A stretch of 64,000 nucleotides of DNA, taken from assembly GCA_937974175.1 (NCBI GenBank), contig CALJIG010000027.1:8809-72808 (forward strand), given 5' to 3'. The notes below the pieces were generated by a model, which made no database searches, was not told where the DNA came from, and saw nothing but the letters and a program-made list of their open reading frames with translations. Source of the DNA: an uncultured Ignavibacteria bacterium (GTDB lineage Bacteria; Bacteroidota; Ignavibacteria; Tepidaquicellales; Tepidaquicellaceae). Numbering within the stretch: the stretch's first letter is position 1; every line of letters starts with the position of its first letter. The position numbers and the translations under genes are program-made. Below are positions 20,118-31,576 of the stretch, piece after piece.

Positions 20118-21200
20118 TTGAAAAAAACCACATTCAATAATATTCACAAGAAGCTGGGCGGAAAACTTGTTGAGTTTGCAGGATATGAAATGCCAATTCA
20201 GTACGAAGGCATTATTGCAGAGCATAAAGCCGTACGTGATTCAGTCGGTGTTTTTGATGTATCTCACATGGGCGAAGTTGAAGTAAGAGGTAAAGATGCA
20301 TTTGCATTTGTTCAGAAGCTTACAACTAACGATGTATCCAAACTTGAAAAAGGTAAGGTTCAGTATTCTTCAATGTGTCTTGAGAACGGCGGAGTAATAG
20401 ACGATTTGCTTGTTTATCACTGCGGAGATTATTTTATGCTGGTAATCAATGCATCAAATATTGAAAAAGATCTGGAGTGGATGTCAAAAAATACTTTCGG
20501 AGATGTTGAGTTAAAAAATGTGTCCGATGAAGTTTCGTTGCTTGCAATACAGGGAAAGAACTCTTTGCCGACATTGCAAAAATTAACAGATACAGATTTA
20601 TCAAAGATTGAATATTATAATTTTGAGTTCGGAAAGATTGCAGGAATTGATTGCATAATTTCTCACACAGGGTATACCGGAGAAAAAATCTGCTTTGAGA
20701 TTTACTCAAAGACTGATGTAGCTCAATCCGAAAAATTATGGAATGAAATATTTAAAGCAGGCGAGGAGTTTAATATTAAGCCAATCGGACTTGGCGCAAG
20801 AGATACATTGAGACTTGAGTATGCGTTCAGATTATACGGAAACGATATGGATGAAAATTACAATCCGCTTGAAGCAGGACTTGGCTGGATAACCAAACTT
20901 GATAAAGGCGAATTCAACGGACGCGAAGCTATGCAGAAATGTAAAGCGGAAGGACTGAAGAAAAAGCTTGTGGGATTTATAGTAGACGATAGAATGGTTG
21001 CAAGACACGGAGCTGAAGTTTATTCGGGCGATGAAAAAATTGGAGTTGTAACAAGCGGGAGCATGTCACCTATGCTTTCAAAAAATATCGGACTTGCATA
21101 CATAAATGAAGGTCATAATAAAATCGGAACCCTTATAGAAATTTTAATACGCGATAAGAAGATAAAAGCTACTATCGTAAAAACACCATTTTTAAATTGA
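20118..21200 (+). CDS. gcvT: Glycine cleavage system aminomethyltransferase (T protein)
   Basis: 360 aa. Contains FAGYEMPIQYEG..EHKAVR..GVFDVSHMGE and ..GLGARDTLRLE.. motifs. TTG start. Confidence 0.9.
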   Translation: MKKTTFNNIHKKLGGKLVEFAGYEMPIQYEGIIAEHKAVRDSVGVFDVSHMGEVEVRGKDAFAFVQKLTTNDVSKLEKGKVQYSSMCLENGGVIDDLLVYHCGDYFMLVINASNIEKDLEWMSKNTFGDVELKNVSDEVSLLAIQGKNSLPTLQKLTDTDLSKIEYYNFEFGKIAGIDCIISHTGYTGEKICFEIYSKTDVAQSEKLWNEIFKAGEEFNIKPIGLGARDTLRLEYAFRLYGNDMDENYNPLEAGLGWITKLDKGEFNGREAMQKCKAEGLKKKLVGFIVDDRMVARHGAEVYSGDEKIGVVTSGSMSPMLSKNIGLAYINEGHNKIGTLIEILIRDKKIKATIVKTPFLN

Positions 21201-21242
21201 TTCAAATTAACCCAAAACAAAACTAAAAAGTTTTTTAATTAG

Positions 21243-22085
21243 ATGATAAATATCACAGTATATCTTACTCATTCACTGGTCACAGATGAACTGACTTTGA
21301 AAGGCAAAAATGTAATTGTAATAGATGCATTGCGCGCAACATCTACAATACCGGCAGCGCTTACAAACGGCGCTAAGGAAGTTATACCTACGGAAAATGC
21401 TGCAACGGCAGTGCGGGTTGCAAAAGGCTCGGCAAATGCTTTGCTATGTGGTGAGCGCGGCGGAAAAATTATTGAAGGGTTTAATCTTGGTAACTCGCCA
21501 TTGGAATATACACCTGAAGTTATAAAAGATAAGTCGCTTGTTTTTTCTACCACGAACGGGACAGTTTCAATTTCAAAAGCAAAATATTCTAAGAACTGCA
21601 TCATTGCAAGCTTTGTAAATCTTAAAGCAATAGTTGAATATTTAAAAGAGCTTAACGAAGATTTTGTAATTATCTGTTCAGGCAAACTGAATAACTTCTG
21701 CATAGAAGATGCAGTCTGCGCCGGAATGATCATCAATAAGCTAATAGATAAGAACGAAGAAAATTATTTTTTAAGTGACCCTGAAAACGCAGTTGTAAAT
21801 CTTGCAAAGTCATTTGCCTATGAGAAGAGTAAAATCTCCTCAACAAAAGTTTTGAACATGATGAAGCTTTCCGAGCACGGAAAATATTTAGTTGAGCTGG
21901 GATTTGAAAACGATTTAGTATTCTGCTCTACAATAGACAGCATTCCAAGTATTCCTATGTTAAAAGGCGGAATAATAAAGCTGAAAGAGCAGTTCGAAGG
22001 CGAATCGAATCAAAAAGCTCAGATGAAAAAATTAAGCCTTACAACGGATAAAGAAGAAGTCAGTACAACAAAAGATGTTGCCTGA
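21243..22085 (+). CDS. comB: 2-phosphosulfolactate phosphatase family protein
   Basis: VIVIDALRATSTI, CGERGG and GNSP motifs of the ComB family. It has a C-terminal extension of about 40 aa. Confidence 0.75.
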   Translation: MINITVYLTHSLVTDELTLKGKNVIVIDALRATSTIPAALTNGAKEVIPTENAATAVRVAKGSANALLCGERGGKIIEGFNLGNSPLEYTPEVIKDKSLVFSTTNGTVSISKAKYSKNCIIASFVNLKAIVEYLKELNEDFVIICSGKLNNFCIEDAVCAGMIINKLIDKNEENYFLSDPENAVVNLAKSFAYEKSKISSTKVLNMMKLSEHGKYLVELGFENDLVFCSTIDSIPSIPMLKGGIIKLKEQFEGESNQKAQMKKLSLTTDKEEVSTTKDVA

Positions 22086-22139
22086 TAAAGAATAGAAATA
22101 CGGAAACAAAAGAACAGATAAAAATAAAAGGTAAGCATC

Positions 22140-24761
22140 ATGGCACGCACTGCGAAAATAAAAGCAAAAGAAACCCGTCGCTCTAAACCACAGAAAGAGG
22201 ACTTTGAAATCTCTGCCGACGCTAAAAAGCAGATGCTGGGATTTTTATTAATTGTCCTTAGCGTTTTACTTTTTCTTTCGCTTGTAACTTTCTCACCCAA
22301 AGATTCTACATTAATAGATACATTCGAGTTAAGGAAATTATTCAATTTTAAAAATGCCGAGCAATGCTATAACTGGCTTGGCATCGGCGGCGCTTATGTA
22401 TCCGCCTTTTTCATCAGAGATTTCTTCGGCTACTATTCAATTTTTATTCCCGTAATTTTGTTTGCAATCGGCTTTCCTCTCCTATGGAAAAAACCCTTAG
22501 GGCGTTATATTCAGTTCAGCATCTTTGCATTTTTTATGATGGTGATATTGGGAATATCTACCGGAATTTTAAAAATTATTGCCGGGACGAATACAGGCTT
22601 TCTTCAGTATGCAGGCGGCGCAGGCGATACGTGGGCAACAATTTTTTACAAGATACTCGGCGGATTCGGAGCATCAGTTGTATTTATACTTTTATTTGTG
22701 CTCGATGCATTTTTAATGATAGACGGAAGCATTGTAAAAACTCTTGCCCGTATAAAATTATTATTTTTAAGATTTATTGAAAGCTTTAAGAAGCATGAAG
22801 AAGTACTATCAAATAAACAGATAGAAAAAGAAGCCGAACGAAAAGCAGTTGAAGACGATAAAATAAAATTAGGATTTATACCGGCTGAACAAGACCCGAT
22901 AAAAGCGGAGAAAGACAGAATTAAAAAATTGCGCGGAGCAAAAACGCTGCCTGTTCAGGAGATTGATTTAATTAAAGAGACTGAAATTAATCGTCCGAAA
23001 GAAATTGAATCTGCATTTATAAATCTTGAAAGAGACCCTTTTGAAGTTATTCCGAAAGATGGAATTAAACCTGAATTAAATGATGAAATAAAAGAAGAGC
23101 CTAAGCTAAAACAAAAAGTAAAATCAGAAAGGCTGAAGAAGAAGGAAGCGCCTAACTTTGAAGACGCATTTGTCGGTACGGAAATAAATAAAGGTGATAA
23201 AACTGAAATTGATATAAATCCCGAAAACTCAAATGAGCTTGAAGGACTTATGGGAAAAGACGAAGATGATTTTATAGAAGAAAAGCTTGAAGGATATAAA
23301 TTCCCGGGTATCGATTTATTAATCGAGCAGACAAAGGAAGAGCTTGAAGTAATTCCCGATGAAGAATTAACCGGCAACGGAAGATTATTACAGGAAAAGT
23401 TATTAAAGTTCGGAATTGAAATTGAAAAAGTATTCGCGACTCCCGGACCGGTTGTTACTTTATATGAACTTGTACCGGCTGCCGATGTAAAACTTTCCAA
23501 AATAGAATCATTACAGGATGATATTGCCCTTGCCATGAAGGCGAAGGGAATAAGATTAATTATTCCTATTCCGGGCAAAGGAACTGTCGGTGTTGAAATC
23601 CCGAACCGCAAAGCGCAGATGGTGAGAATACGCTCGCTTGTTTCATCGCAGAGATATGCTTCAACAGATAAGCTTCTTCCGATTGCTATGGGTAAAACTA
23701 TAGACGGCGAAGTGTTTATTGATGATCTTGCAAAAATGCCGCACGTATTGATTGCCGGAGCAACAGGCTCGGGTAAGTCAGTTGGTATTAATACAATTAT
23801 TGCAAGTTTGATTTACAAAATGCATCCTTCGGATTTAAAGTTTGTGATGATTGACCCGAAGAAAATTGAGCTTAACTTATACTCTAAATTAAAGAAGCAT
23901 TATCTTGCTTCTTCCAGTGATATTAATGAAAGCATTGTTACAAGTCCGCAGAATGCAGTGAGCATTTTAAAAAGCCTTACTGTAGAAATGGATAACCGAT
24001 ATGATAAACTTGCCAATGCAGGAGTACGAAACATCGAAGCTTACAATGTAAAGTATAAAGAAGGAAAGCTTACAAGTAATGAGTTTATACGACATAAAAA
24101 AATGCCGTACATAGTTGTTATAATCGATGAGCTTGCCGACCTTATGATTACCGCTAAAAAAGATATTGAAGAGCCTATTGCACGTCTTGCGCAGATGGCG
24201 AGAGCTGTTGGTATTCACTTAGTCGTTGCAACGCAGAGACCATCGACTGACGTTATTACCGGTGTTATTAAAGCAAACTTCCCTGTGAGAATTGCATATC
24301 AGGTTGCTTCGCAGATTGATTCACGAACTATTATGGATATGAAAGGCGCTGAGCAGCTGCTGAGAAACGGAGACATGCTTTACATGTCATCTTCATCACA
24401 GAAGCCGATTAGAATTCAGAACGCATTTATCTCCACTGAAGAGTGCGAGCTTATAGCAGAGTTTGTTGATGCGCAGGTCGGGTTTAAAAAACCTTATTTA
24501 CTTCCTTCACTTATAGAGAGAAGAACATTTAACGGCGAAGATGAAGAGAGAGATGAATTGTTTGAAGAAGCAGCAAGACTTGTTGTGAAGCTCGGACAGT
24601 GTTCGACATCTACATTGCAAAGAAGGCTGAAGCTCGGGTATGCAAGAGCAGCACGCATTGTTGACCAGATGGAAACTGCAGGAATTGTCGGCAGCGGCAA
24701 CGGCGCCAAAGGCAGAGAGATACTTGTCGGTGAAGAGGATTTAGAAGGAATATTTTATTAA
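22140..24761 (+). CDS. ftsK: DNA translocase FtsK/SpoIIIE
   Basis: N-terminal TM helices and a Glu/Lys-rich linker. Walker A GATGSGKSV and Walker B VVIIDELADL. Also VATQRPS and the C-terminal gamma wHTH (STSTLQRRLKLGYARAARI). Confidence 0.95.
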   Translation: MARTAKIKAKETRRSKPQKEDFEISADAKKQMLGFLLIVLSVLLFLSLVTFSPKDSTLIDTFELRKLFNFKNAEQCYNWLGIGGAYVSAFFIRDFFGYYSIFIPVILFAIGFPLLWKKPLGRYIQFSIFAFFMMVILGISTGILKIIAGTNTGFLQYAGGAGDTWATIFYKILGGFGASVVFILLFVLDAFLMIDGSIVKTLARIKLLFLRFIESFKKHEEVLSNKQIEKEAERKAVEDDKIKLGFIPAEQDPIKAEKDRIKKLRGAKTLPVQEIDLIKETEINRPKEIESAFINLERDPFEVIPKDGIKPELNDEIKEEPKLKQKVKSERLKKKEAPNFEDAFVGTEINKGDKTEIDINPENSNELEGLMGKDEDDFIEEKLEGYKFPGIDLLIEQTKEELEVIPDEELTGNGRLLQEKLLKFGIEIEKVFATPGPVVTLYELVPAADVKLSKIESLQDDIALAMKAKGIRLIIPIPGKGTVGVEIPNRKAQMVRIRSLVSSQRYASTDKLLPIAMGKTIDGEVFIDDLAKMPHVLIAGATGSGKSVGINTIIASLIYKMHPSDLKFVMIDPKKIELNLYSKLKKHYLASSSDINESIVTSPQNAVSILKSLTVEMDNRYDKLANAGVRNIEAYNVKYKEGKLTSNEFIRHKKMPYIVVIIDELADLMITAKKDIEEPIARLAQMARAVGIHLVVATQRPSTDVITGVIKANFPVRIAYQVASQIDSRTIMDMKGAEQLLRNGDMLYMSSSSQKPIRIQNAFISTEECELIAEFVDAQVGFKKPYLLPSLIERRTFNGEDEERDELFEEAARLVVKLGQCSTSTLQRRLKLGYARAARIVDQMETAGIVGSGNGAKGREILVGEEDLEGIFY

Positions 24762-24777
24762 AATCTAACTTATAATT

Positions 24778-25419
24778 ATGGCAAATGAAGATATTAAGTA
24801 TTTAACAGACGAAGTAGCTGGACTCTTAAATTATATTCGTAATTTAATTTTAAACAAACAATTTGATTTCAATAATAAGCAACAAAGGCAAAAATGGGAT
24901 GAAATGGTAGATAAAGCTTTTGAGTTACATAAGTTAGTTAATCCTAAGCATAGTAAAACAATGTTAAGGAATCGAGGTGTTGATCCTAATACTCGCGAAT
25001 TTTATAATCATATTCATCCTATTGAAGATTTATTAGCTATTATTGCTAATCCTAATATTAATGATATTCCAGAAGATAAAACTCTAGGTACTGAATTTTC
25101 CATTAAAATATTTTCCCGACGTTGGAATCATGAAGATGTTTATAAATTTTTAAGAACATTTAATGGATGGTCAATTTCTAATTTAAGTGGAAAAGTCCAA
25201 TGTGATAAAAAAGGCTATCCTGCTCTCTATATCATGTTAAACCATGATTCAATAAACTATCCTGAATCGTTACCAAATTATTTGGAATGGTTATGGGATC
25301 AAGCTCAGGAAATAGGGTTGGATTATAACCAAGTTCAGGAAGAACTAAGTAGATTAGCGGATTGGATAAATATATGTGAAAAAAACTCTCCTAAAGGAAT
25401 TTTTGAGGATTATAAATAA
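24778..25419 (+). CDS. Hypothetical protein, no recognisable family (first gene of the post-ftsK cassette)
   Basis: 213-aa ORF with an ATG start 16 nt after the ftsK stop. No TM segment or signal peptide. Its stop overlaps the next start (TAATG at 25417-25421). G+C is lower than in the flanks. Confidence 0.6.
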   Translation: MANEDIKYLTDEVAGLLNYIRNLILNKQFDFNNKQQRQKWDEMVDKAFELHKLVNPKHSKTMLRNRGVDPNTREFYNHIHPIEDLLAIIANPNINDIPEDKTLGTEFSIKIFSRRWNHEDVYKFLRTFNGWSISNLSGKVQCDKKGYPALYIMLNHDSINYPESLPNYLEWLWDQAQEIGLDYNQVQEELSRLADWINICEKNSPKGIFEDYK

Positions 25420-26228
25420 TGGACATTAAGAAAATTGAACATATTCCAGAAATTGAAAACTTAAAGATAAAAGGTGCAGAAGAAATTGAAGATTCAAAAA
25501 GGGAAGAAGATGCTAAAAAAATTGAAATTGTTCCTAATCAGGGTGTAGTTACTATTTTAGATATTTTAGGATGGAAAGGAATTTGGCAAAGGAACAAAAA
25601 TGCTCTTCAAGATTTAGACGATCTTGTAAATGAAATAGAAACCTTTGCTTCAAGTTCATCTAAACTTTTTCGAAATTTCCAAAAGTTTGGTGTTGAGGAT
25701 AATATTACGAAAGTAATGGTTATTTCTGATACTATAGTAATAACTACTAGTGCTGAAGAAAATGATTCTAATAATGCTCTTGATTTACATGGACTTATAT
25801 GTAAAGATGCAATCCCTTATTCTATTATGAAAGGAATTCCTGTTAGAGGTGCAACATGTTATGGTGAATTTGCAACAGGAAAAGGAATAAATAGTTTTGT
25901 GGGAAAAGCAGTGGATGAAGCTGCCTCATGGCATGAAACAACAGATTGGATTGGGGTAATAATGACACCTTCAGCTAAATATTCATATCATACTCCTACA
26001 GAAGATTATTGGAAAGAAACCGACCCGCCGTTTAAGAATAATCTGAAATTTTCGACATATGGCGTAAATTGGATTAATCAAGAAGATTTATCTCTACAAG
26101 AAATTTTAAAAGCATTTATTAATTTAAGTCCAATTATTCCGGACATTGTAAATAAATTTGAAAATACAATAAAATTTATTACACCAGAAAAATCAGCAAC
26201 ACATAAAAAAAATATTTTGCCTGAATAA
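25419..26228 (+). CDS. Hypothetical protein with a class-III nucleotidyl-cyclase-like (palm-fold) motif pattern
   Basis: 269 aa with an acidic N-terminal tail. Motifs in order: VVTILDILGWKG, about 55 aa, VMVISDTIVITT, PVRGATCYGEF, FVGKAVDEAASW. Coding status is more certain than the fold assignment. Confidence 0.55.
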   Translation: MDIKKIEHIPEIENLKIKGAEEIEDSKREEDAKKIEIVPNQGVVTILDILGWKGIWQRNKNALQDLDDLVNEIETFASSSSKLFRNFQKFGVEDNITKVMVISDTIVITTSAEENDSNNALDLHGLICKDAIPYSIMKGIPVRGATCYGEFATGKGINSFVGKAVDEAASWHETTDWIGVIMTPSAKYSYHTPTEDYWKETDPPFKNNLKFSTYGVNWINQEDLSLQEILKAFINLSPIIPDIVNKFENTIKFITPEKSATHKKNILPE

Positions 26229-26230
26229 AT

Positions 26231-26986
26231 TTGCCTAACCTCACTTCCATATTATCCTCAATAGATTCTCTTAAATCACGGCTTTATAAAGTTCGTCCGC
26301 TAGATTCTACCCAATTAAAAAAAATAAACGAAGCGATTTTTTTAGAGTACACTTACGATAGCAACCGCATTGAAGGAAATACTTTAACTTTACAGGAAAC
26401 TGCGTTAATTGTTCAGAAGGGAATCACTATATCAGGAAAAAATTTAACGGAGCATCTTGAGGCGATTAATCATTATGAGGCTGTTGAATATATACAGAAA
26501 ATTGTCGCAGACAAAATAGAATTATCGGACAGAATTTTGAAAGATATTCATGCTTTAGTGCTACGGAGCATTGATAAAGATAATGCAGGTAAGTATAGAA
26601 ATGTGAATGTGAAAATCGCGGGCAGCAGATTTATGCCGGCGGACTCTGTGAAAGTAATTGATGAAATGGAAAATTATTTTAAGTGGTATAGTGAAAACAA
26701 AGATAAACTCCACCCTGTTATACTTTCTGCTGAAATGCATGAGCGTCTTGTGACGATTCACCCATTTATTGACGGCAACGGAAGAACGGCAAGGCTGGTT
26801 ATGAATCTGATTTTATTACAAAACGGATTTACAATTGCGAACATAATAGGCTCGAATGAGAATCGTTTGAAATATTACAATGCGCTCGAGAAGTGTCAGG
26901 TGGAAAATATCTGCGAAGATTTTCATGTATTGGTAGCAGAGACTGTGGAAAATTCGTTGCATGAATATTTGAAGATTGCAGAATAA
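26231..26986 (+). CDS. Fic-family AMPylase (class II, with N-terminal autoinhibitory helix)
   Basis: Canonical Fic motif HPFIDGNGRTAR (26759-26794 region). Inhibitory [ST]xxxE[GN] motif SNRIEG (26360-26377). TTG start 2 nt after the upstream stop. Confidence 0.9.
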   Translation: MPNLTSILSSIDSLKSRLYKVRPLDSTQLKKINEAIFLEYTYDSNRIEGNTLTLQETALIVQKGITISGKNLTEHLEAINHYEAVEYIQKIVADKIELSDRILKDIHALVLRSIDKDNAGKYRNVNVKIAGSRFMPADSVKVIDEMENYFKWYSENKDKLHPVILSAEMHERLVTIHPFIDGNGRTARLVMNLILLQNGFTIANIIGSNENRLKYYNALEKCQVENICEDFHVLVAETVENSLHEYLKIAE

Positions 26987-27054
26987 TAGTTAGGTTTATG
27001 CTTTTCCCATTTCATTTTTAAAACCCACTACGTAGATTTACTTATACAATATAG

Positions 27055-27573
27055 TTGAGAAAATTAATCCCAATAATATTACTTACAGTATTCTTTTTTA
27101 ATTTCTCCGGATATCTCTATTTCTTTTATGTAAGCAAGATGGAGATAAATGAAGAAATGAGAGAGATAATCGAAAACGGAATAGAGTTTGAAAAAATAAC
27201 TCTGCATTTAAGCGATTATAAAAAATACATGATTGAAGAGCACGAACTTTTTCTTCACAATAAGCTTTATGATGTTTCAAGAGTAGAAATTGAAGGTGAC
27301 AGCATAATTTTTTATTGCGTTCACGATGAAAAAGAGCAGGATTTATTGGCTTCGCTTGATGTAATATTTGGCATGGGGGAAGAAAACACAAACAACTATA
27401 ATTCAGACTCAGAGCTTTTAAATTTTTTATACATTTCCAGTATAATAAATCAGCAAAACTCGCTGATTAAAAATACAATCTACCTCGCATCCATAAAGGA
27501 ATTTACACTTTTTTTACAATCACAATCTATAACACCAAATACACAACCGCCTAAGCATAATCTATTCACTTAG
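27055..27573 (+). CDS. Small single-pass membrane protein (paralogue of 28723..29277), upstream partner of a TonB-dependent receptor
   Basis: N-terminal TM helix with FNFSGYLYFFYV. Shared blocks EKITLH, GDSIIFYCVHDEKEQDL and the Pro-rich tail PNTQPPKH. TTG start. Confidence 0.6.
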   Translation: MRKLIPIILLTVFFFNFSGYLYFFYVSKMEINEEMREIIENGIEFEKITLHLSDYKKYMIEEHELFLHNKLYDVSRVEIEGDSIIFYCVHDEKEQDLLASLDVIFGMGEENTNNYNSDSELLNFLYISSIINQQNSLIKNTIYLASIKEFTLFLQSQSITPNTQPPKHNLFT

Positions 27574-27616
27574 TTAATCTGTTCTAAAATTTTCTTTAAT
27601 CATTAAAATTTATTTT

Positions 27617-28591
27617 ATCAAAAGAATAATATTTCTTTGCGCAATATTATTCTTGTGCGTTGATTATTGATTTTCGCAAACTGAAAAAGATTCAGTAAAG
27701 TATGAAACGGACAACATATTCATTTCGGGTACACGTACCGAACAAAAACTTATTGATATACCTTATCCTGTAAATCTTATAAATAAAGATGACTTTAAAT
27801 ATTCACGAAACCTCGGAATTAATGACGTACTTTCAACAACGCCGGGGCTCTTCATGCAGTCAAGATACGGAAATCACGATGTCAGAATTTCTATTAGAGG
27901 ATTCGGCAGCCGCTCTAATACAGGCATTCGCGGAGTCAGAATGTTACTCGACGGAATACCGGAATCCGAGCCCGACGGGCAAACAAGAATAGAGGCAATC
28001 GACTTTAATGCTTTAGGCAGCATTGAAGTTACCGGAGGAAATGCTTCAGCATTATATACAAACGCGCAGGGCGGAGTAATCAATTTTATTTCAAATATTA
28101 AATTTTATAAACCACTTGTATGGTCGTTTAATGAATTTGGCGAATTCGCCGAATTTGGAATGAGAAAGAACAGCTTGAAATTTGGAGCTGCTGCTGACAA
28201 ATTACGATTCATGTCGACATTCACTTATTCGAACTATAAAGATTATCGTGAGCACAGTGAGGAGTACCAAAAGATGTTTAACTCGGTACTGGAAACGGAA
28301 GTAGGGTCTGTCTCAACCTTATCTGTGCTCACTAATTTTGTCAGCGGCGCAATCCGTTTGCCCGGCTCATTAAATCTATCACAATTTGAAACAAACCCCA
28401 AACAGGCAAATACTTCCGATAAAGGAAGAGATGCCAAACGCGATTCAAGGAAAGGCAGACTTGCAGTGAGATTTAACTCAACGTTCTGAAAAAGCCTTAA
28501 CAATGAAATTGAAGGAACGTGATATGTGACTATTAAAGACTTCGACAGGACAGCCCGCACATACAGATTATTCGCAAGATACGGTGTATGA
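27617..28591 (+). pseudogene. Decayed 5' fragment (signal peptide, plug, first barrel strands) of a TonB-dependent receptor paralogous to 29450..31576
   Basis: Colinear with the first ~320 codons of the intact copy. Lesions: start codon ATG->ATC (27617-27619), and in-frame TGA at 27668-27670, 28487-28489 and 28520-28522. Homology ends at TGA 28589-28591, so the remaining ~390 codons are missing. Confidence 0.85.
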
Positions 28592-28722
28592 AATTTACTT
28601 TTGCATGCATAATTAAAAAACTTACCTTTCAGGAATTTTTAAAAATGTTTTATCTGTTTTAGAATAGCTTACATAATAAAACAGCAGACTTTAAATTTTA
28701 TTACTTTCATTTAAAATAATTC

Positions 28723-29277
28723 TTGCCTAATTTATATCAAATTCCCTTTACTGTTTTGAAAAAGTTTTTATCGCTTATAATATTATGCGCTTTAGTTTTT
28801 AATTTTTGCGGCTTCCTTGTGTATTTTTATGTGAAGCAGCAGATTATTTATGCTGAAGTCAGAGCAAAAATGAGCGATACTGCCAATCACGAAAAAATTA
28901 CTCTTCATAAAGATGATGTGCAAAAATACGCATGGGGAAGAAAAGAATTAAAGATTGGCGAGAAGCTTTTTGATATTGTAAAGCAGGAGGCAAAAGGCGA
29001 CAGTTTAGTTTTTGATTGTGTTAGAGATAAGAAGGAAGAAGCTTTATATACTACTCTTGAGAAATTTTTAGACCATAAAGAACAGAAGAAAAAGAATAAT
29101 GCAAGTGCTCAGATAAACCTTGTTAAATTTTTATTATTAGTAAGCATACTACCGCAGCAAAATTATGTTACAAATATAGAACCACATCTTATTTCATTTA
29201 AAGAATCTTCCTTAAAGTTTAGTTCTTCGGGGGTTATCCCGGATACACCGCCGCCCCGGCGTCACATCTCCATATAA
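28723..29277 (+). CDS. Small single-pass membrane protein (paralogue of 27055..27573), upstream partner of a TonB-dependent receptor
   Basis: TM helix with FNFCGFLVYFYV. Shared blocks EKITLH, GDSLVFDCVRDKKEEAL and the Pro-rich tail PDTPPPRRH. The exact start codon is uncertain (TTG). Confidence 0.6.
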   Translation: MPNLYQIPFTVLKKFLSLIILCALVFNFCGFLVYFYVKQQIIYAEVRAKMSDTANHEKITLHKDDVQKYAWGRKELKIGEKLFDIVKQEAKGDSLVFDCVRDKKEEALYTTLEKFLDHKEQKKKNNASAQINLVKFLLLVSILPQQNYVTNIEPHLISFKESSLKFSSSGVIPDTPPPRRHISI

Positions 29278-29449
29278 TATAATTTAACCAATTTATTGAA
29301 GTAATGTCCTGTTCAGGATTTATTTCAATCTTCATTTTATTTTAAAGTAATATTCTGGACAGGTGTTATTGCTTTCGGCTTTTGCTATTGGCATTAATAA
29401 TATCTGTACGCAGTATTATGTATAACTTATAAATATTAAAAATAATTTT

Positions 29450-31576
29450 ATGAAAAAAATATTCTTCATATTTTTTATAACTTTACTTTTTAGTGTGTCA
29501 TCTATGGCTCAAACCGATAAAGACACCGTAAAGTATAAAACAGATGATGTAATTATAACCGGAACAAGAACGGAAAAAAAATTAATCGACATTCCTTATC
29601 CTGTAGATTTAATAGAGAAAGAAGACTTTCGATACTCACGAAACATGGGGATCAATGACGTATTAGGCACAACACCGGGATTATTTATGCAGTCAAGATA
29701 CGGCAACCATGATGTAAGAATTTCAATAAGAGGTTTCGGCAGCCGTTCTAATACAGGTATAAGAGGTGTGAGAATTTTACTCGACGGAATACCTGAGTCA
29801 GAACCTGACGGACAGACAAGAATAGAAGCAATTGATTTTAACGCGCTTGGAAGCATTGAAGTTGTCCGCGGAAATGCATCTGCATTATATACGAACGCGC
29901 CGGGCGGAGTAATAAACTTCATTAATGATATTAAGTTTTATAAACCTTTTGCGTGGTCTTTTAATGAGATAGGTGAGTTCGGCATGCGTAAAAATACTAT
30001 TAAAGCAGGTGTTGCAACAAATTCGCTGAGATTTATGACATCATTTACTTATACAAATTACAATGGTTATAGAGACCATAGTAATGAGTATCAGAAAATA
30101 GTAAACTCGGTTTTGGAAGCTGAAGTAGGAAGAAACTCAAACTTAAGTGTGCTGACAAATTTCGTAAGCGGCGCAATCCGTCTTCCGGGTTCATTAAATT
30201 TAACTCAGTATAATGAAAATCCGCTGCAGGCAAATGCAACAGATAAATCACGTGATGCAAAAAGAGATTCGAAAAAAGGAAGACTTGCAGTAAGATTTAA
30301 TAATACATTTGGAAAGAGCTTGAATAATGTTATTGAAGGTACGGGATATCTGACTGTAAAAGATTTTGACAGGACAGCAAAAACATACCGTTTATTTTCA
30401 AGATATGGTCTCGGCGGTTCATTAAGATATGTAAATAAATCTGAAATTGCCGGACGTGATAACGAATTTTCAGTTGGCGGAGATTTGTTCTATCAAACAG
30501 GTCCTATTGAAGAATTCGAAAACATCGGCGGAACAAGAGGCGATATTCTACTTGCTATTTCCGATGAAACCATCAGCAATGCAGGATTTTATTTCTCCAA
30601 TCAGTTCAGCATTGTTAGAGGCAAGCTAGATTTTCTTTTCACAGGAAGATATGACAATGTGAACTTCGATGTAGTTGACCGCTTAGCCGGAATAAGAGAT
30701 GCAACAAGAAACTTTAACCGCTTTACTCCTAAGTTTGCTTTGAACTACAAGCTTACTCCTTATGCAGCTATTTATGGTTCATTCGGATTAGGTTTCGATA
30801 CTCCCGCAGGAAATGAACTTGATAACTACCCGTTATCTTCAGACGGAAATCTTGGCGCTTTAAATCCTGATTTGAATGCTCAAACATCAAAGAACTTTGA
30901 ATTAGGAACAAAGGGAAATATTTTAAATCACGGAGGTAAATGGTTCAAAGATAACGTTTATGAACTTGTGTTTTACAGATTACAGATTGAAGATGAAATA
31001 GTTCCGTTCATTGTAAGTAATGCAGCATATTTCCGAAATGCGGCAAAAAGTACCAGAAACGGTATTGAGTTCGGGTTTACTACAAATATAATAGGCGGAC
31101 TGAAATCAAAAACGGCGTACAATTTTTCTGATTTTAAATACGATACTTATACAGCGCTTATATACGATGCCAATGGTAATGCAACAACAAAAGATTACTC
31201 AGGAAATACGGCTCCTTCAGTACCTAAACATTATTTATCTTCAGATCTAATTTATAATTACAAAATTACACCAAGCGTAACGGCATTTGCAAAATTCAAT
31301 TACACTTATGTTGAAGGAATGTTCACAGATGACGGGAACTCAGCTAAAACAGAATCATACATTCTGTTAAACAGCGGAATCGGTATGGAAGTTACTGTTG
31401 ATAATTTTAACCTGATTGCAAATGCAGGTCTTGGAAATCTGACAGATAAAAAATATGTTGCCTATATAAATATTAATGCAGATCCCGACAGAGCAGTTGA
31501 CAGAAGAACATATTATGAATCAGGCGTGCCAAAAAATTTCTTCGCAGGATTAAATCTTGGTTATATATTCAGATAA
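29450..31576 (+). CDS. TonB-dependent outer-membrane receptor
   Basis: Signal peptide and a TonB-box-like DDVIITGTR. Plug motifs (RGFGSRS, LLDGIP, IEVVRG). 22-strand-sized barrel with a C-terminal aromatic residue (..LGYIFR). Confidence 0.9.
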   Translation: MKKIFFIFFITLLFSVSSMAQTDKDTVKYKTDDVIITGTRTEKKLIDIPYPVDLIEKEDFRYSRNMGINDVLGTTPGLFMQSRYGNHDVRISIRGFGSRSNTGIRGVRILLDGIPESEPDGQTRIEAIDFNALGSIEVVRGNASALYTNAPGGVINFINDIKFYKPFAWSFNEIGEFGMRKNTIKAGVATNSLRFMTSFTYTNYNGYRDHSNEYQKIVNSVLEAEVGRNSNLSVLTNFVSGAIRLPGSLNLTQYNENPLQANATDKSRDAKRDSKKGRLAVRFNNTFGKSLNNVIEGTGYLTVKDFDRTAKTYRLFSRYGLGGSLRYVNKSEIAGRDNEFSVGGDLFYQTGPIEEFENIGGTRGDILLAISDETISNAGFYFSNQFSIVRGKLDFLFTGRYDNVNFDVVDRLAGIRDATRNFNRFTPKFALNYKLTPYAAIYGSFGLGFDTPAGNELDNYPLSSDGNLGALNPDLNAQTSKNFELGTKGNILNHGGKWFKDNVYELVFYRLQIEDEIVPFIVSNAAYFRNAAKSTRNGIEFGFTTNIIGGLKSKTAYNFSDFKYDTYTALIYDANGNATTKDYSGNTAPSVPKHYLSSDLIYNYKITPSVTAFAKFNYTYVEGMFTDDGNSAKTESYILLNSGIGMEVTVDNFNLIANAGLGNLTDKKYVAYININADPDRAVDRRTYYESGVPKNFFAGLNLGYIFR

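What the first reader, a model, noticed from the sequence alone, without database searches (positions are those of the whole stretch)
24778..26986. Compact three-gene cassette wedged behind ftsK: two orphan genes coupled to a Fic AMPylase (candidate undescribed defence/signalling system)
Seen in sequence: ftsK stops at 24761. A 213-aa ORF starts 16 nt later. Its stop overlaps the ATG of a 269-aa ORF (TAATG, 25417-25421). That ORF's stop (26228) lies 2 nt before the TTG start of a 251-aa Fic protein (26231). This packing implies one transcript and translational coupling. I hand-counted G+C in 60-nt samples. Inside the first two genes the counts are 17, 14, 15 and 21 of 60 (24778-24837, 24838-24897, 25441-25500, 25801-25860). 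The comparison samples give 25 of 60 in the Fic gene (26761-26820) and 33 of 60 at the ftsK 3' end (24642-24701). The first two genes therefore look compositionally foreign. Neither orphan resembles a family I can name. The second has a nucleotidyl-cyclase-like palm signature, and the third is an intact AMPylase. Established knowledge: Fic proteins are AMPylating toxins/effectors, and a stand-alone Fic gene (named SoFic in defence-system catalogues) is listed as an anti-phage gene. Inference, option one: a sensor or signal-generator pair feeds a Fic effector. Option two: an unknown 2-gene module sits next to a Fic defence gene.
Basis: partly seen in the sequence, partly recalled or inferred. 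Interest (0 to 1): 0.85.

Follow-up and report, generated by a model that had tools for sequence, protein, structure and literature searches.

The report
Cyclase-like defence gene pair beside Fic
Two tightly coupled foreign genes wedged between ftsK and a resident Fic gene belong to a widespread, unnamed gene pair (a divergent nucleotide-cyclase-like enzyme plus a partner protein) that recurs in anti-phage defence islands of bacteria and archaea; the Fic gene is a neighbour, not part of the system.

Summary

The interpretation needs splitting. ORF1 and ORF2 form a real unit. In 74 assessable genome loci from many phyla, an ORF1 homologue is fused to ORF2 (2 loci) or lies immediately upstream (49 loci, median gap -4 nt). 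Natural ORF1-ORF2 fusion proteins also exist.

ORF2 is a divergent class III nucleotidyl-cyclase-fold protein. All 50 listed Foldseek PDB hits are adenylyl or guanylyl cyclases, and four compact relatives pass Pfam's PF00211 threshold. ORF1 is a helical domain plus a VCH_CASS3-like (PF21648) domain of unknown function.

The pair sits in defence islands. It is repeatedly embedded between hsdS and hsdR of type I R-M operons, and it is also found after BREX and beside DarTG, GmrSD, McrBC, AbiE and OLD genes. It matches no PADLOC model and no paper I could find.

Fic is not a partner. It is adjacent only in this lineage. A close relative has ftsK, a 263-nt spacer, then fic, without the pair. Fic also has host-like composition, whereas ORF1 and ORF2 are the two lowest-GC genes in the window.

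Verdict: a candidate new two-gene defence module next to a resident Fic gene. Function and mechanism are untested.

The parts
24764..26226 (+). Inserted segment (1463 nt) carrying ORF1 and ORF2. It replaces the ftsK-fic intergenic spacer seen in relative L082.
   Evidence: blastn: L082 1-4074 matches window 20647-24763, and L082 4330-5081 matches window 26227-26977. In between, L082 has 263 nt of non-coding DNA. Lowest GC and GC3 in the window.
24778..25419 (+). ORF1, 213 aa: partner protein of the pair (proposed sensor/regulator). Helical N-domain (about aa 1-95) plus an alpha+beta C-domain.
   Evidence: ORF. AF2 model pLDDT 90.2. Family alignment A2 has 28 invariant columns. Directly upstream of ORF2 in 49 of 74 assessable loci and fused in 2.
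24943..25077 (+). Most conserved stretch of the ORF1 N-domain: PKH(H)KxM ... FYNHIHPIEDLL ... ANDDPED. It is rich in His, Asp and Glu. Role unknown.
   Evidence: Invariant H58, H78, H80, D84, N95 and T102 in A2; coordinates. The window copy deviates at H59S, Y61T, I63L, A94I and D97I.
25093..25371 (+). ORF1 C-domain (aa 106-198): PF21648 'M1E1E6-like integron cassette protein', VCH_CASS3 fold.
   Evidence: Pfam E 4.5e-9, 36.9 bits against cut-off 27. PDB profile hit 3fy6, E 5.3e-9. Foldseek 3fy6 E 1.6e-5, TM 0.75.
25417..25421 (+). TAATG stop/start overlap of ORF1 and ORF2 (translational coupling).
   Evidence: Sequence. An overlap or abutment is the rule across the family: median gap -4 nt, 43 of 49 overlapping.
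25419..26228 (+). ORF2, 269 aa: divergent class III nucleotidyl-cyclase-fold enzyme (proposed output enzyme). Residues 1-36 are a low-confidence N-terminal extension.
   Evidence: AF2 pLDDT 85.8, pTM 0.81. All 50 listed Foldseek PDB hits are class III adenylyl/guanylyl cyclases, probability 1.0. The family has 5009 clusters at E<=1e-3.
25557..25580 (+). ORF2 motif LDILGWKG. Invariant D48 lies at the end of strand beta1 (position of the first metal-binding Asp of class III cyclases), followed by the G51-W-K-G54 loop.
   Evidence: Invariant columns in A1 and A6. Secondary structure. PF00211 register in relatives.
25722..25733 (+). ORF2 motif ISDT. Invariant S103-D104-T105 lies at the beta2-beta3 hairpin (position of the second metal-binding Asp).
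25839..25853 (+). ORF2 motif PVRGA. Invariant R143-G144 lies on strand beta4 (position of the phosphate-binding Arg of class III cyclases).
25911..25937 (+). ORF2 motif VDEAASWHE on helix alpha4. Invariant D166-E167 occupies the place where canonical cyclases carry the transition-state Asn...Arg pair.
   Evidence: Invariant columns. The comparison with the canonical motif rests on my knowledge of class III cyclases, not on a computed structural alignment.
26231..26986 (+). Fic-domain protein, 251 aa, TTG start. A resident neighbour gene, not a conserved part of the pair.
   Evidence: PF02661 E 3e-22. PADLOC SoFic 9.6e-36 and PDC-S04 1.9e-30. Orthologue with an ATG start follows ftsK directly in L082. 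Host-like GC.
26360..26377 (+). Fic N-terminal inhibitory-type motif SNRIEG, matching (S/T)xxxE(G/N).
   Evidence: Regex hit at aa 44-49. Reading it as an auto-inhibitory helix is from established Fic literature, not tested here.
26759..26794 (+). Fic active-site motif HPFIDGNGRTAR, matching HxFx(D/E)GNGRxxR.
   Evidence: Regex hit at aa 177-188.

Best explanation
The region holds two separate things.

(1) A horizontally acquired two-gene module, ORF1 plus ORF2. It is one copy of a widespread, so far unnamed gene pair that lives in anti-phage defence islands of Bacteria and Archaea.
- ORF2 is a divergent class III nucleotidyl-cyclase-fold enzyme. It keeps the two metal-binding aspartates and the phosphate-binding arginine, but carries an invariant Asp-Glu where canonical cyclases have the transition-state Asn/Arg.
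- ORF1 is a helical domain plus a VCH_CASS3-like dimer domain. It is the cognate partner, made in fixed proportion through overlapping stop and start codons.

Proposed mechanism (inferred, not shown): ORF1 acts as the sensor or keeper that holds the dimeric ORF2 enzyme inactive. A phage-derived cue, or loss of ORF1, frees ORF2. ORF2 then converts NTPs into a cyclic or otherwise non-canonical nucleotide product. The infected cell is arrested either by nucleotide depletion or by a signal read by an unlinked receptor.

(2) A resident, auto-inhibited-type Fic AMPylase gene that already followed ftsK in this lineage. The insertion replaced its upstream spacer. As a result fic now sits 2 nt behind ORF2 and is probably expressed from upstream genes. 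It is not a conserved component of the system.
For: Shown:
- Pair conservation: 51 of 74 assessable genome loci have ORF1 fused (2) or immediately upstream (49) of ORF2, with a median gap of -4 nt.
- Natural fusions in the same order: P0042, P0049, P0052, P0194, P0227, P0245.
- ORF2 fold: all 50 listed Foldseek PDB hits are class III cyclases, E down to 3e-7, probability 1.0.
- Sequence bridge: four family members of about 204 aa pass the PF00211 gathering score and share every invariant motif with the window's ORF2.
- Invariant D48, D104 and R143 sit at the end of beta1, the beta2-beta3 hairpin and beta4 of the model.
- Defence context:
  - between hsdS and hsdR in M. barkeri, M. hollandica, L149/L150 (with GmrSD and DarT-Macro) and five further genome loci;
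  - directly after brxL of a BREX operon;
  - between a BrxR/SMC-ATPase cluster and McrBC;
  - between OLD/AAA_15 ATPases on a recombinase island and on plasmid pMC319;
  - on an integrase island with TIR and AbiE.
- Immediate neighbours are enriched for type I S subunits, D12 methylases, AbiEii, AAA_15/21 and MADS genes.
- The hsdS-hsdR gap is a documented hotspot for embedded defence systems (PMC12255303; 10.1101/2024.01.29.577857).
- ORF1 as sensor and ORF2 as output: the ORF2 domain is alternatively fused to TPR arrays or to an unrelated 'N2' module. An ORF1 module is fused to a TIR domain with no ORF2 on either side.
- Fic is independent.
- The window copies are intact: ORF2 deviates at 1 of 56 conserved columns and ORF1 at 5 of 67. 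The identical trio occurs on contigs from four other samples.
Against: - No phenotype or biochemistry exists. 'Defence' rests on guilt by association and embedding.
- No effector of a familiar kind (nuclease, TIR, membrane protein, cNMP-binding domain) is linked, so how cell arrest would follow is conjecture.
- The window's ORF2 itself does not reach any Pfam cyclase threshold.
- The catalytic-residue mapping is by motif position on a predicted model, not by a computed superposition.
- The Asn/Arg to Asp-Glu change could mean different chemistry or no cyclase activity.
- 23 of 74 loci have an ORF2 homologue without a recognisable ORF1.
- Some neighbours are housekeeping genes (Obg and L21 in 3 loci), and in the window itself the only defence-type neighbour is Fic.
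- The ORF1-TIR argument rests on one 1.5-kb contig.
- The window's ORF1 carries five substitutions at nearly invariant positions.
Confidence: 0.6

Rival explanations
1. Pycsar-like signalling pair. ORF2 makes a cyclic mononucleotide on infection, and ORF1 is the receptor-effector that binds it and kills or arrests the cell.
For: The architecture of a cyclase plus one small partner in defence islands resembles Pycsar. ORF1 has a very conserved His/Asp/Glu-rich patch that could be a ligand or catalytic site. An ORF1-TIR fusion is reminiscent of Pycsar's receptor-TIR effectors.
Against: ORF1 has no cNMP-binding, TIR, transmembrane or nuclease domain. Neither family hits PycC or any Pycsar effector model in PADLOC. 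The ORF1-TIR fusion has no cyclase on either side. ORF2 is also fused to TPR or N2 modules in place of ORF1, which fits interchangeable sensors better than interchangeable effectors. Covalent ORF1-ORF2 fusions are unusual for a diffusible-signal pair.
Confidence: 0.15
2. One reading: a three-gene system in which ORF1 and ORF2 sense or generate a signal that switches on the Fic AMPylase effector.
For: The three genes are packed with a 4-nt overlap and a 2-nt gap and are probably co-expressed. No terminator-like site lies between them. The trio is stable on contigs from four other samples. Fic carries an auto-inhibitory-type motif that would need relief.
Against: Fic is adjacent in 0 of 76 other loci. 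A close relative has ftsK-fic without the pair. Composition shows separate origins. The pair works with many unrelated neighbours.
Confidence: 0.05
3. Plain addiction or selfish toxin-antitoxin module with no dedicated anti-phage role. ORF2 is a nucleotide-modifying toxin and ORF1 is its antitoxin, and the pair persists on mobile DNA by post-segregational killing.
For: Two small overlapping genes with the putative neutraliser first. Presence on recombinase or integrase islands and plasmids. The C-domain relative VCH_CASS3 comes from an integron cassette array (PMC3548836). Foreign composition.
Against: ORF1 has no DNA-binding domain typical of type II antitoxins. Fused ORF1-ORF2 proteins exist. 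The recurrent embedding inside R-M and BREX operons is the signature used to predict defence genes. TA and defence roles are not mutually exclusive.
Confidence: 0.15
4. Housekeeping second-messenger signalling: a small cyclase with a regulatory subunit controlling ordinary physiology.
For: Class III cyclases are mostly signalling enzymes. TPR-cyclase fusions occur in ordinary signalling. Some loci have housekeeping neighbours.
Against: The distribution across phyla and domains is patchy, with foreign composition here. The pair is absent from close relatives and has mobile and defence neighbours in 7 of 8 annotated contexts. The canonical transition-state residues are lost.
Confidence: 0.05

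Closest known systems
Class III adenylyl/guanylyl cyclase catalytic domain (Pfam PF00211; e.g. CyaC 1wc1, Cya2 2w01, CyaB 3r5g, sGC 4ni2)
   Same: Same fold (Foldseek probability 1.0, TM 0.55-0.69 on the target). Invariant Asp at the end of beta1 and at the beta2-beta3 hairpin, and Arg on beta4. Compact relatives pass the PF00211 threshold over the N-terminal half.
   Different: 10-19% identity. The window protein is invisible to PF00211. GWKG replaces the GFT loop. An invariant Asp-Glu replaces the transition-state Asn/Arg on helix alpha4. A conserved extra C-terminal segment of about 60 residues (...PxxPEIxxKFxNT...) is present. The product is unknown.
[quoted passage not shown]
   Same: A class III-type cyclase encoded with one partner gene in defence islands. 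Modular exchange of partner domains.
   Different: No hit to PycC models. The partner lacks a cNMP-binding domain and a TIR or TM effector. The partner lies upstream and is often fused to the cyclase.
Sensor-gated toxin modules such as fused toxin-antitoxin CapRel(SJ46), and nucleotidyltransferase toxins such as AbiEii and MenT (from my own knowledge)
   Same: Proposed logic: a nucleotide-using enzyme is kept off by a cognate domain or protein that doubles as the phage sensor. Both split and fused forms exist. Genes are small and overlapping.
   Different: Unrelated folds. No toxicity or trigger has been shown for ORF1/ORF2.
Defence genes embedded in type I R-M operons (DarTG2 between hsdS and hsdR, PMC12255303; PrrC; embedded candidates of Payne et al. 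10.1101/2024.01.29.577857)
   Same: Same insertion site (hsdS-hsdR gap) in at least eight loci. In L149/L150 the pair sits right beside DarT-Macro inside the same operon.
   Different: Different proteins. Most copies of the pair, including the one in this window, are not R-M embedded.
VCH_CASS3 (PDB 3fy6), Vibrio cholerae integron cassette protein (PMC3548836)
   Same: The ORF1 C-domain shares its two-layer alpha+beta fold (TM 0.75, 22-25% identity) and its family, PF21648.
   Different: VCH_CASS3 is a stand-alone 126-aa dimer of unknown function with no N-terminal helical domain. No cyclase partner is reported for it.
SoFic / PADLOC candidate PDC-S04 (single-gene Fic defence candidates)
   Same: The window's Fic has the canonical HPFxDGNGRxxR motif. 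It matches the SoFic model (9.6e-36) and PDC-S04 models (1.9e-30).
   Different: 251 aa against about 361. It covers only positions 55-271 of the SoFic model. It scores 42.5 bits against the 550-bit cut-off of the NCBIfam SoFic equivalog. No defence phenotype is known.

Membership tests
Class III nucleotidyl cyclase (ORF2) | Catalytic-domain fold (beta-alpha-alpha-beta-beta-alpha-beta palm-like core) | tested here: met
   AF2 model pLDDT 85.8. All 50 listed Foldseek PDB hits are class III cyclases, probability 1.0, E 3e-7 to 9e-6.
Class III nucleotidyl cyclase (ORF2) | Sequence match to Pfam PF00211 above the gathering score | tested here: not met
   The window's ORF2 has no hit even at E<=10. 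Four compact family members do pass (22.6-25.0 bits against 21.9), but only over model positions 11-89 of 183.
Class III nucleotidyl cyclase (ORF2) | Two metal-binding aspartates (end of beta1; beta2-beta3 hairpin) and a phosphate-binding arginine on beta4 | tested here: met
   D48, D104 and R143 are invariant in 51 sequences and lie at those positions of the model. In P0361 the PF00211 alignment spans both Asp residues without net indels. The mapping is by motif and secondary structure, not by superposition.
Class III nucleotidyl cyclase (ORF2) | Transition-state Asn and Arg on helix alpha4 (canonical G..VN.A.R.E) | tested here: not met
   The family has an invariant G162..V-D166-E167-A-A-S-W-H-E173, with no Asn or Arg at those positions. 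The canonical motif is recalled from knowledge.
Class III nucleotidyl cyclase (ORF2) | Cyclase activity (NTP to cNMP + PPi) | not testable with these tools
   Needs enzyme assays.
Pycsar | PycC-family cyclase | tested here: not met
   No PADLOC hit for ORF2 at E<=1. None of 51 family members hits a PycC model.
Pycsar | Adjacent effector with a cNMP-binding domain fused to TIR or transmembrane helices | tested here: not met
   The ORF1 family has only PF21648. There is no conserved third gene in 76 loci.
Pycsar | Anti-phage phenotype dependent on the cyclase active site | not testable with these tools
   Needs phage challenge of wild type against D48A or D104A.
PF21648 / VCH_CASS3-like (ORF1 C-domain) | Pfam match above the gathering score and the same fold as 3fy6 | tested here: met
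   36.9 bits against 27. PDB profile E 5.3e-9. Foldseek TM 0.75.
Conserved ORF1-ORF2 pair (unnamed) | ORF1 homologue immediately upstream of, or fused to, the ORF2 homologue | tested here: met
   Window: TAATG overlap. Family: 51 of 74 loci.
Defence-island gene (guilt by association or embedding) | Recurrent location next to or inside known defence systems in unrelated genomes | tested here: met
   Type I R-M embedded in at least 8 loci, plus BREX, DarTG, GmrSD, McrBC, AbiE, OLD and recombinase islands. 7 of 8 Pfam-annotated contexts are clearly defence or mobile-element loci and 1 (L157) is ambiguous. No formal background statistic was computed.
   Fic is adjacent only in the window lineage (L001-L004), in 0 of 76 other loci. 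L082 has fic without the pair.
Fic/Doc AMPylase (ORF3) | PF02661 domain with the HxFx(D/E)GNGRxxR motif | tested here: met
   E 3e-22. HPFIDGNGRTAR at aa 177-188.
SoFic equivalog (ORF3) | Full-length match to the SoFic model (NCBIfam NF046030, cut-off 550 bits) | tested here: not met
   42.5 bits. The PADLOC SoFic model is matched only over positions 55-271 of 361. The protein is about 110 residues shorter.
Type II toxin-antitoxin | Antitoxin with a DNA-binding domain; toxin neutralised by direct binding | tested here: inconclusive
   Two small overlapping genes are present (met). No HTH, RHH or AbrB domain was found in ORF1. Neutralisation is untestable here.

The most novel reading that the evidence does not exclude
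ORF1-ORF2 is a previously unrecognised type of immune system shared by Bacteria and Archaea. A class III cyclase-fold enzyme with altered active-site chemistry (Asp-Glu in place of Asn/Arg) is itself the terminal output. It acts either by draining NTP pools or by making a non-canonical nucleotide. It is gated by interchangeable sensor modules (VCH_CASS3-like ORF1, 'N2', TPR). The system is recurrently slotted between hsdS and hsdR, or behind BREX, as a second line that fires when restriction is evaded.
Probability: 0.3. Interest if true: 0.8.

Novelty: new variant of a known kind. Interest (0 to 1): 0.6.

Why it matters
Nucleotide-cyclase immunity (CBASS, Pycsar, type III CRISPR) is a central theme linking bacterial and animal innate immunity. 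All known versions pair the cyclase with a recognisable receptor-effector.

This pair differs in several ways:
- The cyclase-like family is large: 5009 clusters at 50% identity, of which 237 reach E<=1e-30.
- It is invisible to PF00211 and to PADLOC, and it spans many bacterial phyla and archaea.
- It is repeatedly embedded in R-M and BREX operons.
- It has no linked effector, and its partner has an orphan fold.

If the pair is functional, it would add a new branch of cyclase-based defence, give the PF21648/VCH_CASS3 fold its first function, and provide a compact two-gene system (about 1.45 kb) that is easy to test.

For this window specifically, the work corrects the gene-content model. The pair is a mobile insertion, and Fic is an older resident gene whose expression was rewired by that insertion.

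Tried and rejected
- PDB sequence-profile search for ORF2 found nothing meaningful. A single-sequence PDB search with the TPR-fused Fusobacterium domain also failed, so I have no residue-level alignment to a solved cyclase.
- A Pfam scan of all 51 ORF2 family members at E<=10 gave only one weak PF00211 hit. The bridge came only from a compact subfamily.
- I tested whether the alternative N-terminal module 'N2' is a diverged ORF1. hhalign probability was 3%, so this was rejected.
- I tested whether the ORF1-TIR fusion is flanked by an ORF2. The downstream ORF is a 52-aa hydrophobic peptide and the upstream fragment is unrelated.
- The promoter and terminator scan of 24300-27400 gave 16 promoter-like sites against 13.6 expected and no terminators, so it is uninformative. 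The sigma-70 consensus may not apply to this organism.
- There are no phage or virus links for ORF1 or ORF2: no tblastn hit for ORF2 in 50,697 phage records, no PHROG hit for either protein, and no BFVD fold match for ORF1.
- My home-made Hsd profiles detected type I R-M genes in only 7 of 76 loci. This is a lower bound, because the profiles were narrow.
- A Pfam scan of second and third neighbours failed on the size limit and was not repeated.
- Literature searches for PF21648, VCH_CASS3, 'integron cassette protein' with cyclase, and recent defence-discovery papers found no description of the pair.
- Considered and rejected: that low GC alone marks the cassette. Other low-GC stretches exist in the window. 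At gene level, however, ORF1 and ORF2 are the extremes, especially in GC3.

Full report
**1. Observation**

- ftsK ends at 24761.
- A 213-aa ORF starts 16 nt later, at 24778.
- The ORF1 stop overlaps the ATG of a 269-aa ORF as TAATG (25417-25421).
- That ORF ends at 26228.
- A 251-aa Fic ORF starts at TTG 26231, which is the only available start because an in-frame TGA lies at 26222-26224.

All six hand-counted 60-nt G+C values are exact. Gene-level composition:

| Gene | GC | GC3 |
|---|---|---|
| ORF1 | 0.290 | 0.187 |
| ORF2 | 0.301 | 0.148 |
| Fic | 0.360 | 0.353 |

The mean over the 50 ORFs of at least 150 aa in the window is GC 0.362 and GC3 0.303. ORF1 and ORF2 are the two lowest-GC ORFs (GC3 z = -2.65 and -3.54). 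Fic is indistinguishable from the host genes (z = -0.07).

**2. ORF1 and ORF2 are a conserved unit**

- ORF2 has 340 word-indexed homologues. In an exhaustive profile search it has 5009 clusters at E<=1e-3, of which 237 reach E<=1e-30.
- ORF1 has 33 word-indexed homologues, all carrying PF21648 except one ORF1-TIR fusion, P0152.
- I retrieved 76 reference-genome loci through the ORF2 profile. They come from Bacteroidota, Desulfobacterota, Verrucomicrobiota, Lentisphaerota, Zixibacteria, Bacillota, Myxococcota, Planctomycetota, Methanosarcina, Heimdallarchaeota and others.
- Of these, 74 can be assessed. An ORF1 homologue is fused to ORF2 in 2 loci and lies immediately upstream in 49. The median gap is -4 nt, the range is -92 to +9, and 43 overlap.
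- Natural single-chain fusions keep the same ORF1-then-ORF2 order (P0042, P0049, P0052 and others).
- Half-fusions also exist: N-half only in P0103 and P0107, C-half only in P0216.
- The window's copies look intact. ORF2 deviates at 1 of 56 conserved columns and ORF1 at 5 of 67.
- The identical three-gene arrangement is present on contigs from four other samples.

**3. What the proteins are**

ORF2:
- It has no Pfam, NCBIfam or PADLOC match.
- Its AlphaFold model is confident (pLDDT 85.8, pTM 0.81).
- All 50 listed Foldseek PDB matches are class III adenylyl or guanylyl cyclase catalytic domains, with probability 1.0 and target-normalised TM of 0.55-0.69 for single-domain chains, at 10-19% identity.
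- There is a sequence bridge. Four compact family members of about 204 aa exceed the PF00211 gathering score over the N-terminal half, and they share every invariant motif with the window protein.
- The invariant residues D48 (LDILGWKG), D104 (ISDT) and R143 (PVRGA) sit at the end of beta1, at the beta2-beta3 hairpin and on beta4. These are the positions of the two metal-binding aspartates and the phosphate-binding arginine of class III cyclases.
- That assignment is by motif and predicted secondary structure. I could not compute a superposition.
- On helix alpha4, canonical enzymes carry the transition-state Asn...Arg. This family has an invariant Asp166-Glu167 and no Arg.
- So nucleotidyl-transfer chemistry is plausible, but the product may not be a canonical 3',5'-cNMP.

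ORF1:
- Its model is confident (pLDDT 90.2), with a helical N-domain and an alpha+beta C-domain.
- The C-domain matches only VCH_CASS3 (PDB 3fy6), by profile (E 5e-9) and by fold (TM 0.75).
- VCH_CASS3 is a dimeric integron-cassette protein with a novel fold and unknown function (PMC3548836).
- The N-domain carries a strongly conserved His/Asp/Glu-rich stretch of unknown role.

**4. Fic is a neighbour, not a component**

- No other ORF2 locus has Fic beside it.
- Among 61 metagenomic relatives of this ftsK, L082 is one of the closest, with its ftsK C-terminal half 94% identical. It reads gcvT, comB, ftsK, a 263-nt non-coding spacer, then fic (251 aa, ATG start).
- Nucleotide homology to the window runs up to 24763, at the ftsK stop. 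It resumes at 26227, 4 nt before the fic start.
- More distant relatives have neither fic nor the pair behind ftsK.
- Together with the composition data, this shows that a 1463-nt two-gene segment replaced the ftsK-fic spacer.
- A deletion in the L082 lineage is less likely, because L082 has an unrelated 263-nt spacer and the pair has foreign GC3. Either way the pair and fic are separable.
- The Fic protein has the canonical HPFIDGNGRTAR motif and an N-terminal SNRIEG inhibitory-type motif.
- It matches PADLOC SoFic and PDC-S04 models. However, it is about 110 residues shorter than SoFic and far below the NCBIfam SoFic equivalog cut-off, 42.5 bits against 550.
- It has phage homologues (phrog_11900, 8e-46).
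- The insertion removed its native upstream region, so fic is now probably expressed by read-through and coupling from ORF2. That is inference only. The promoter and terminator scan was uninformative.

**5. Genomic context of the pair elsewhere**

| Locus | Organism or source | Context |
|---|---|---|
| L143 | M. barkeri | hsdM-hsdS-ORF1-ORF2-hsdR |
| L154 | M. hollandica | hsdM-hsdS-ORF1-ORF2-hsdR |
| L149/L150 | lineage seen on 42 contigs | hsdM-GmrSD-hsdS-ORF1-ORF2-DarT-Macro-hsdR |
| L155 | Halioglobus | BrxC-PglX-PglZ-BrxL-ORF1-ORF2 |
| L151 | 5-Mb genome | BrxR, a four-gene SMC-ATPase cluster (Wadjet-like by size and order, not verified), the pair, a transposase, McrBC |
| L146/L147 | Bacillus | serine-recombinase island with AAA_15/21 ATPases on both sides |
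| L156 | Polynucleobacter | integrase island with TIR and AbiEii/AbiEi |
| L157 | metagenome contig | ambiguous locus with DUF87 ATPase, YaaC and UvrD |

- The Bacillus arrangement also occurs on plasmid pMC319, with ATPase+HNH and OLD-family genes.
- My narrow Hsd profiles place five further genome loci between hsdS and hsdR.
- Pfam and PADLOC scans of the 136 immediate neighbours are headed by type I S subunits, D12 methylases, AbiEii, AAA_15/21 and MADS genes. A few are housekeeping genes, Obg and L21.
- The hsdS-hsdR gap is a documented hotspot for embedded defence systems. 'Guilt by embedding' is an accepted predictor (PMC12255303; Payne et al. preprint).
- Neither family matches any PADLOC v2 model, PycC and the PDC candidates included.
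- No paper I could search mentions PF21648 or such a pair.
- The pair is rare on plasmids (3 records) and absent from the phage collection.

**6. Which part does what**

- The ORF2 domain is modular. In Fusobacterium it is fused to long TPR arrays.
- In 12 clusters it is fused to an unrelated module of about 210-230 aa, 'N2'.
- In others it carries C-terminal extensions, one of them weakly DUF3226/RloB-like.
- Conversely, an ORF1 module is fused to a TIR domain with no ORF2 on either side. This rests on a single short contig.
- Interchangeable N-terminal modules on a constant enzyme, and one ORF1 module on a different enzyme, fit a layout in which ORF1 is the sensor/regulator and ORF2 is the output enzyme.
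- They fit a layout in which ORF2 is the signal generator and ORF1 the effector less well.
- My best-supported mechanism is therefore a sensor-gated nucleotide-converting enzyme. It is analogous in logic to fused toxin-antitoxin sensors such as CapRel. Cell arrest would follow from NTP depletion or from a non-canonical nucleotide product.
- These last steps are inference.

**7. Comparison and novelty**

- The pair works most like a cyclase-based abortive-infection module. It fails the membership tests for Pycsar: no PycC match and no cNMP-binding TIR or TM effector.
- ORF2 meets only part of the class III cyclase definition. The fold, the metal-binding Asp residues and the Arg are met. The PF00211 score and the transition-state Asn/Arg are not.
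- I rate it a new variant of a known kind: an uncatalogued candidate defence system built on a divergent cyclase fold and an orphan partner fold.
- Interest is moderate to high. Thousands of embedded candidate families exist, so a specialist would not be astonished.
- However, a large pan-domain cyclase-like family with altered catalytic residues, no linked effector and repeated R-M and BREX embedding is a concrete target that is cheap to test.

Noticed in passing
window 27055-31576: An old tandem duplication with a period of about 1.83 kb lies downstream of fic. Each unit holds a small membrane-anchored protein (172 aa and 184 aa, 36% identical, E 1e-37) followed by a TonB-dependent receptor. 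The first receptor copy is reduced to a 211-aa Plug-domain ORF (27854-28489). The second is intact (708 aa, 29450-31576). Nucleotide repeats are 72-77% identical.
   Followed up: partly
window 26231 versus L082 4336: The fic start codon is TTG in the window but ATG at the homologous position in relative L082. The change coincides with the loss of fic's own 263-nt upstream region to the ORF1-ORF2 insertion.
   Followed up: partly
L083-L141 (relatives of this ftsK): The position just behind ftsK is variable across relatives. Most have an ORF of about 187 aa, some have unrelated genes, one (L082) has fic, and only the window lineage has the pair. This suggests a local hotspot for gene gain and loss.
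   Followed up: no
P0237, P0250, P0257, P0267, P0270, P0274, P0276, P0280, P0285, P0287, P0290; L071 9329-10663: A second N-terminal module of about 205-232 aa ('N2') is fused to the same cyclase-like domain in 12 clusters. It has no Pfam match and is not detectably related to ORF1 (hhalign probability 3%). In L071 it is followed by an HTH + M78 peptidase gene.
   Followed up: partly
L069 3809-5971, L075 2323-4368, L076 9263-10669 (Fusobacterium): Long TPR arrays (5-11 repeats) are fused N-terminally to the ORF2-type domain. These are abundant in oral Fusobacterium metagenomes. Some are annotated only as 'tetratricopeptide repeat protein'.
   Followed up: partly
L142 169-1281 (protein P0152): A full-length ORF1-like module is fused to a C-terminal TIR_2 domain. 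It is followed by an overlapping 52-aa hydrophobic peptide gene, and there is no ORF2 on the 1.5-kb contig.
   Followed up: partly
L024 9950-11122; L053 9929-11149; P0154, P0156, P0173, P0185: Some ORF2 homologues carry C-terminal extensions of 90-190 aa. One is weakly similar to DUF3226/RloB/DUF4276 (Toprim-like). The others have no family match. They may be built-in effector domains.
   Followed up: no
L149/L150 3451-15440: A type I R-M operon is packed with three embedded modules in a row: GmrSD between hsdM and hsdS, then ORF1-ORF2 and DarT-Macro between hsdS and hsdR. It is seen on 42 metagenome contigs.
   Followed up: no
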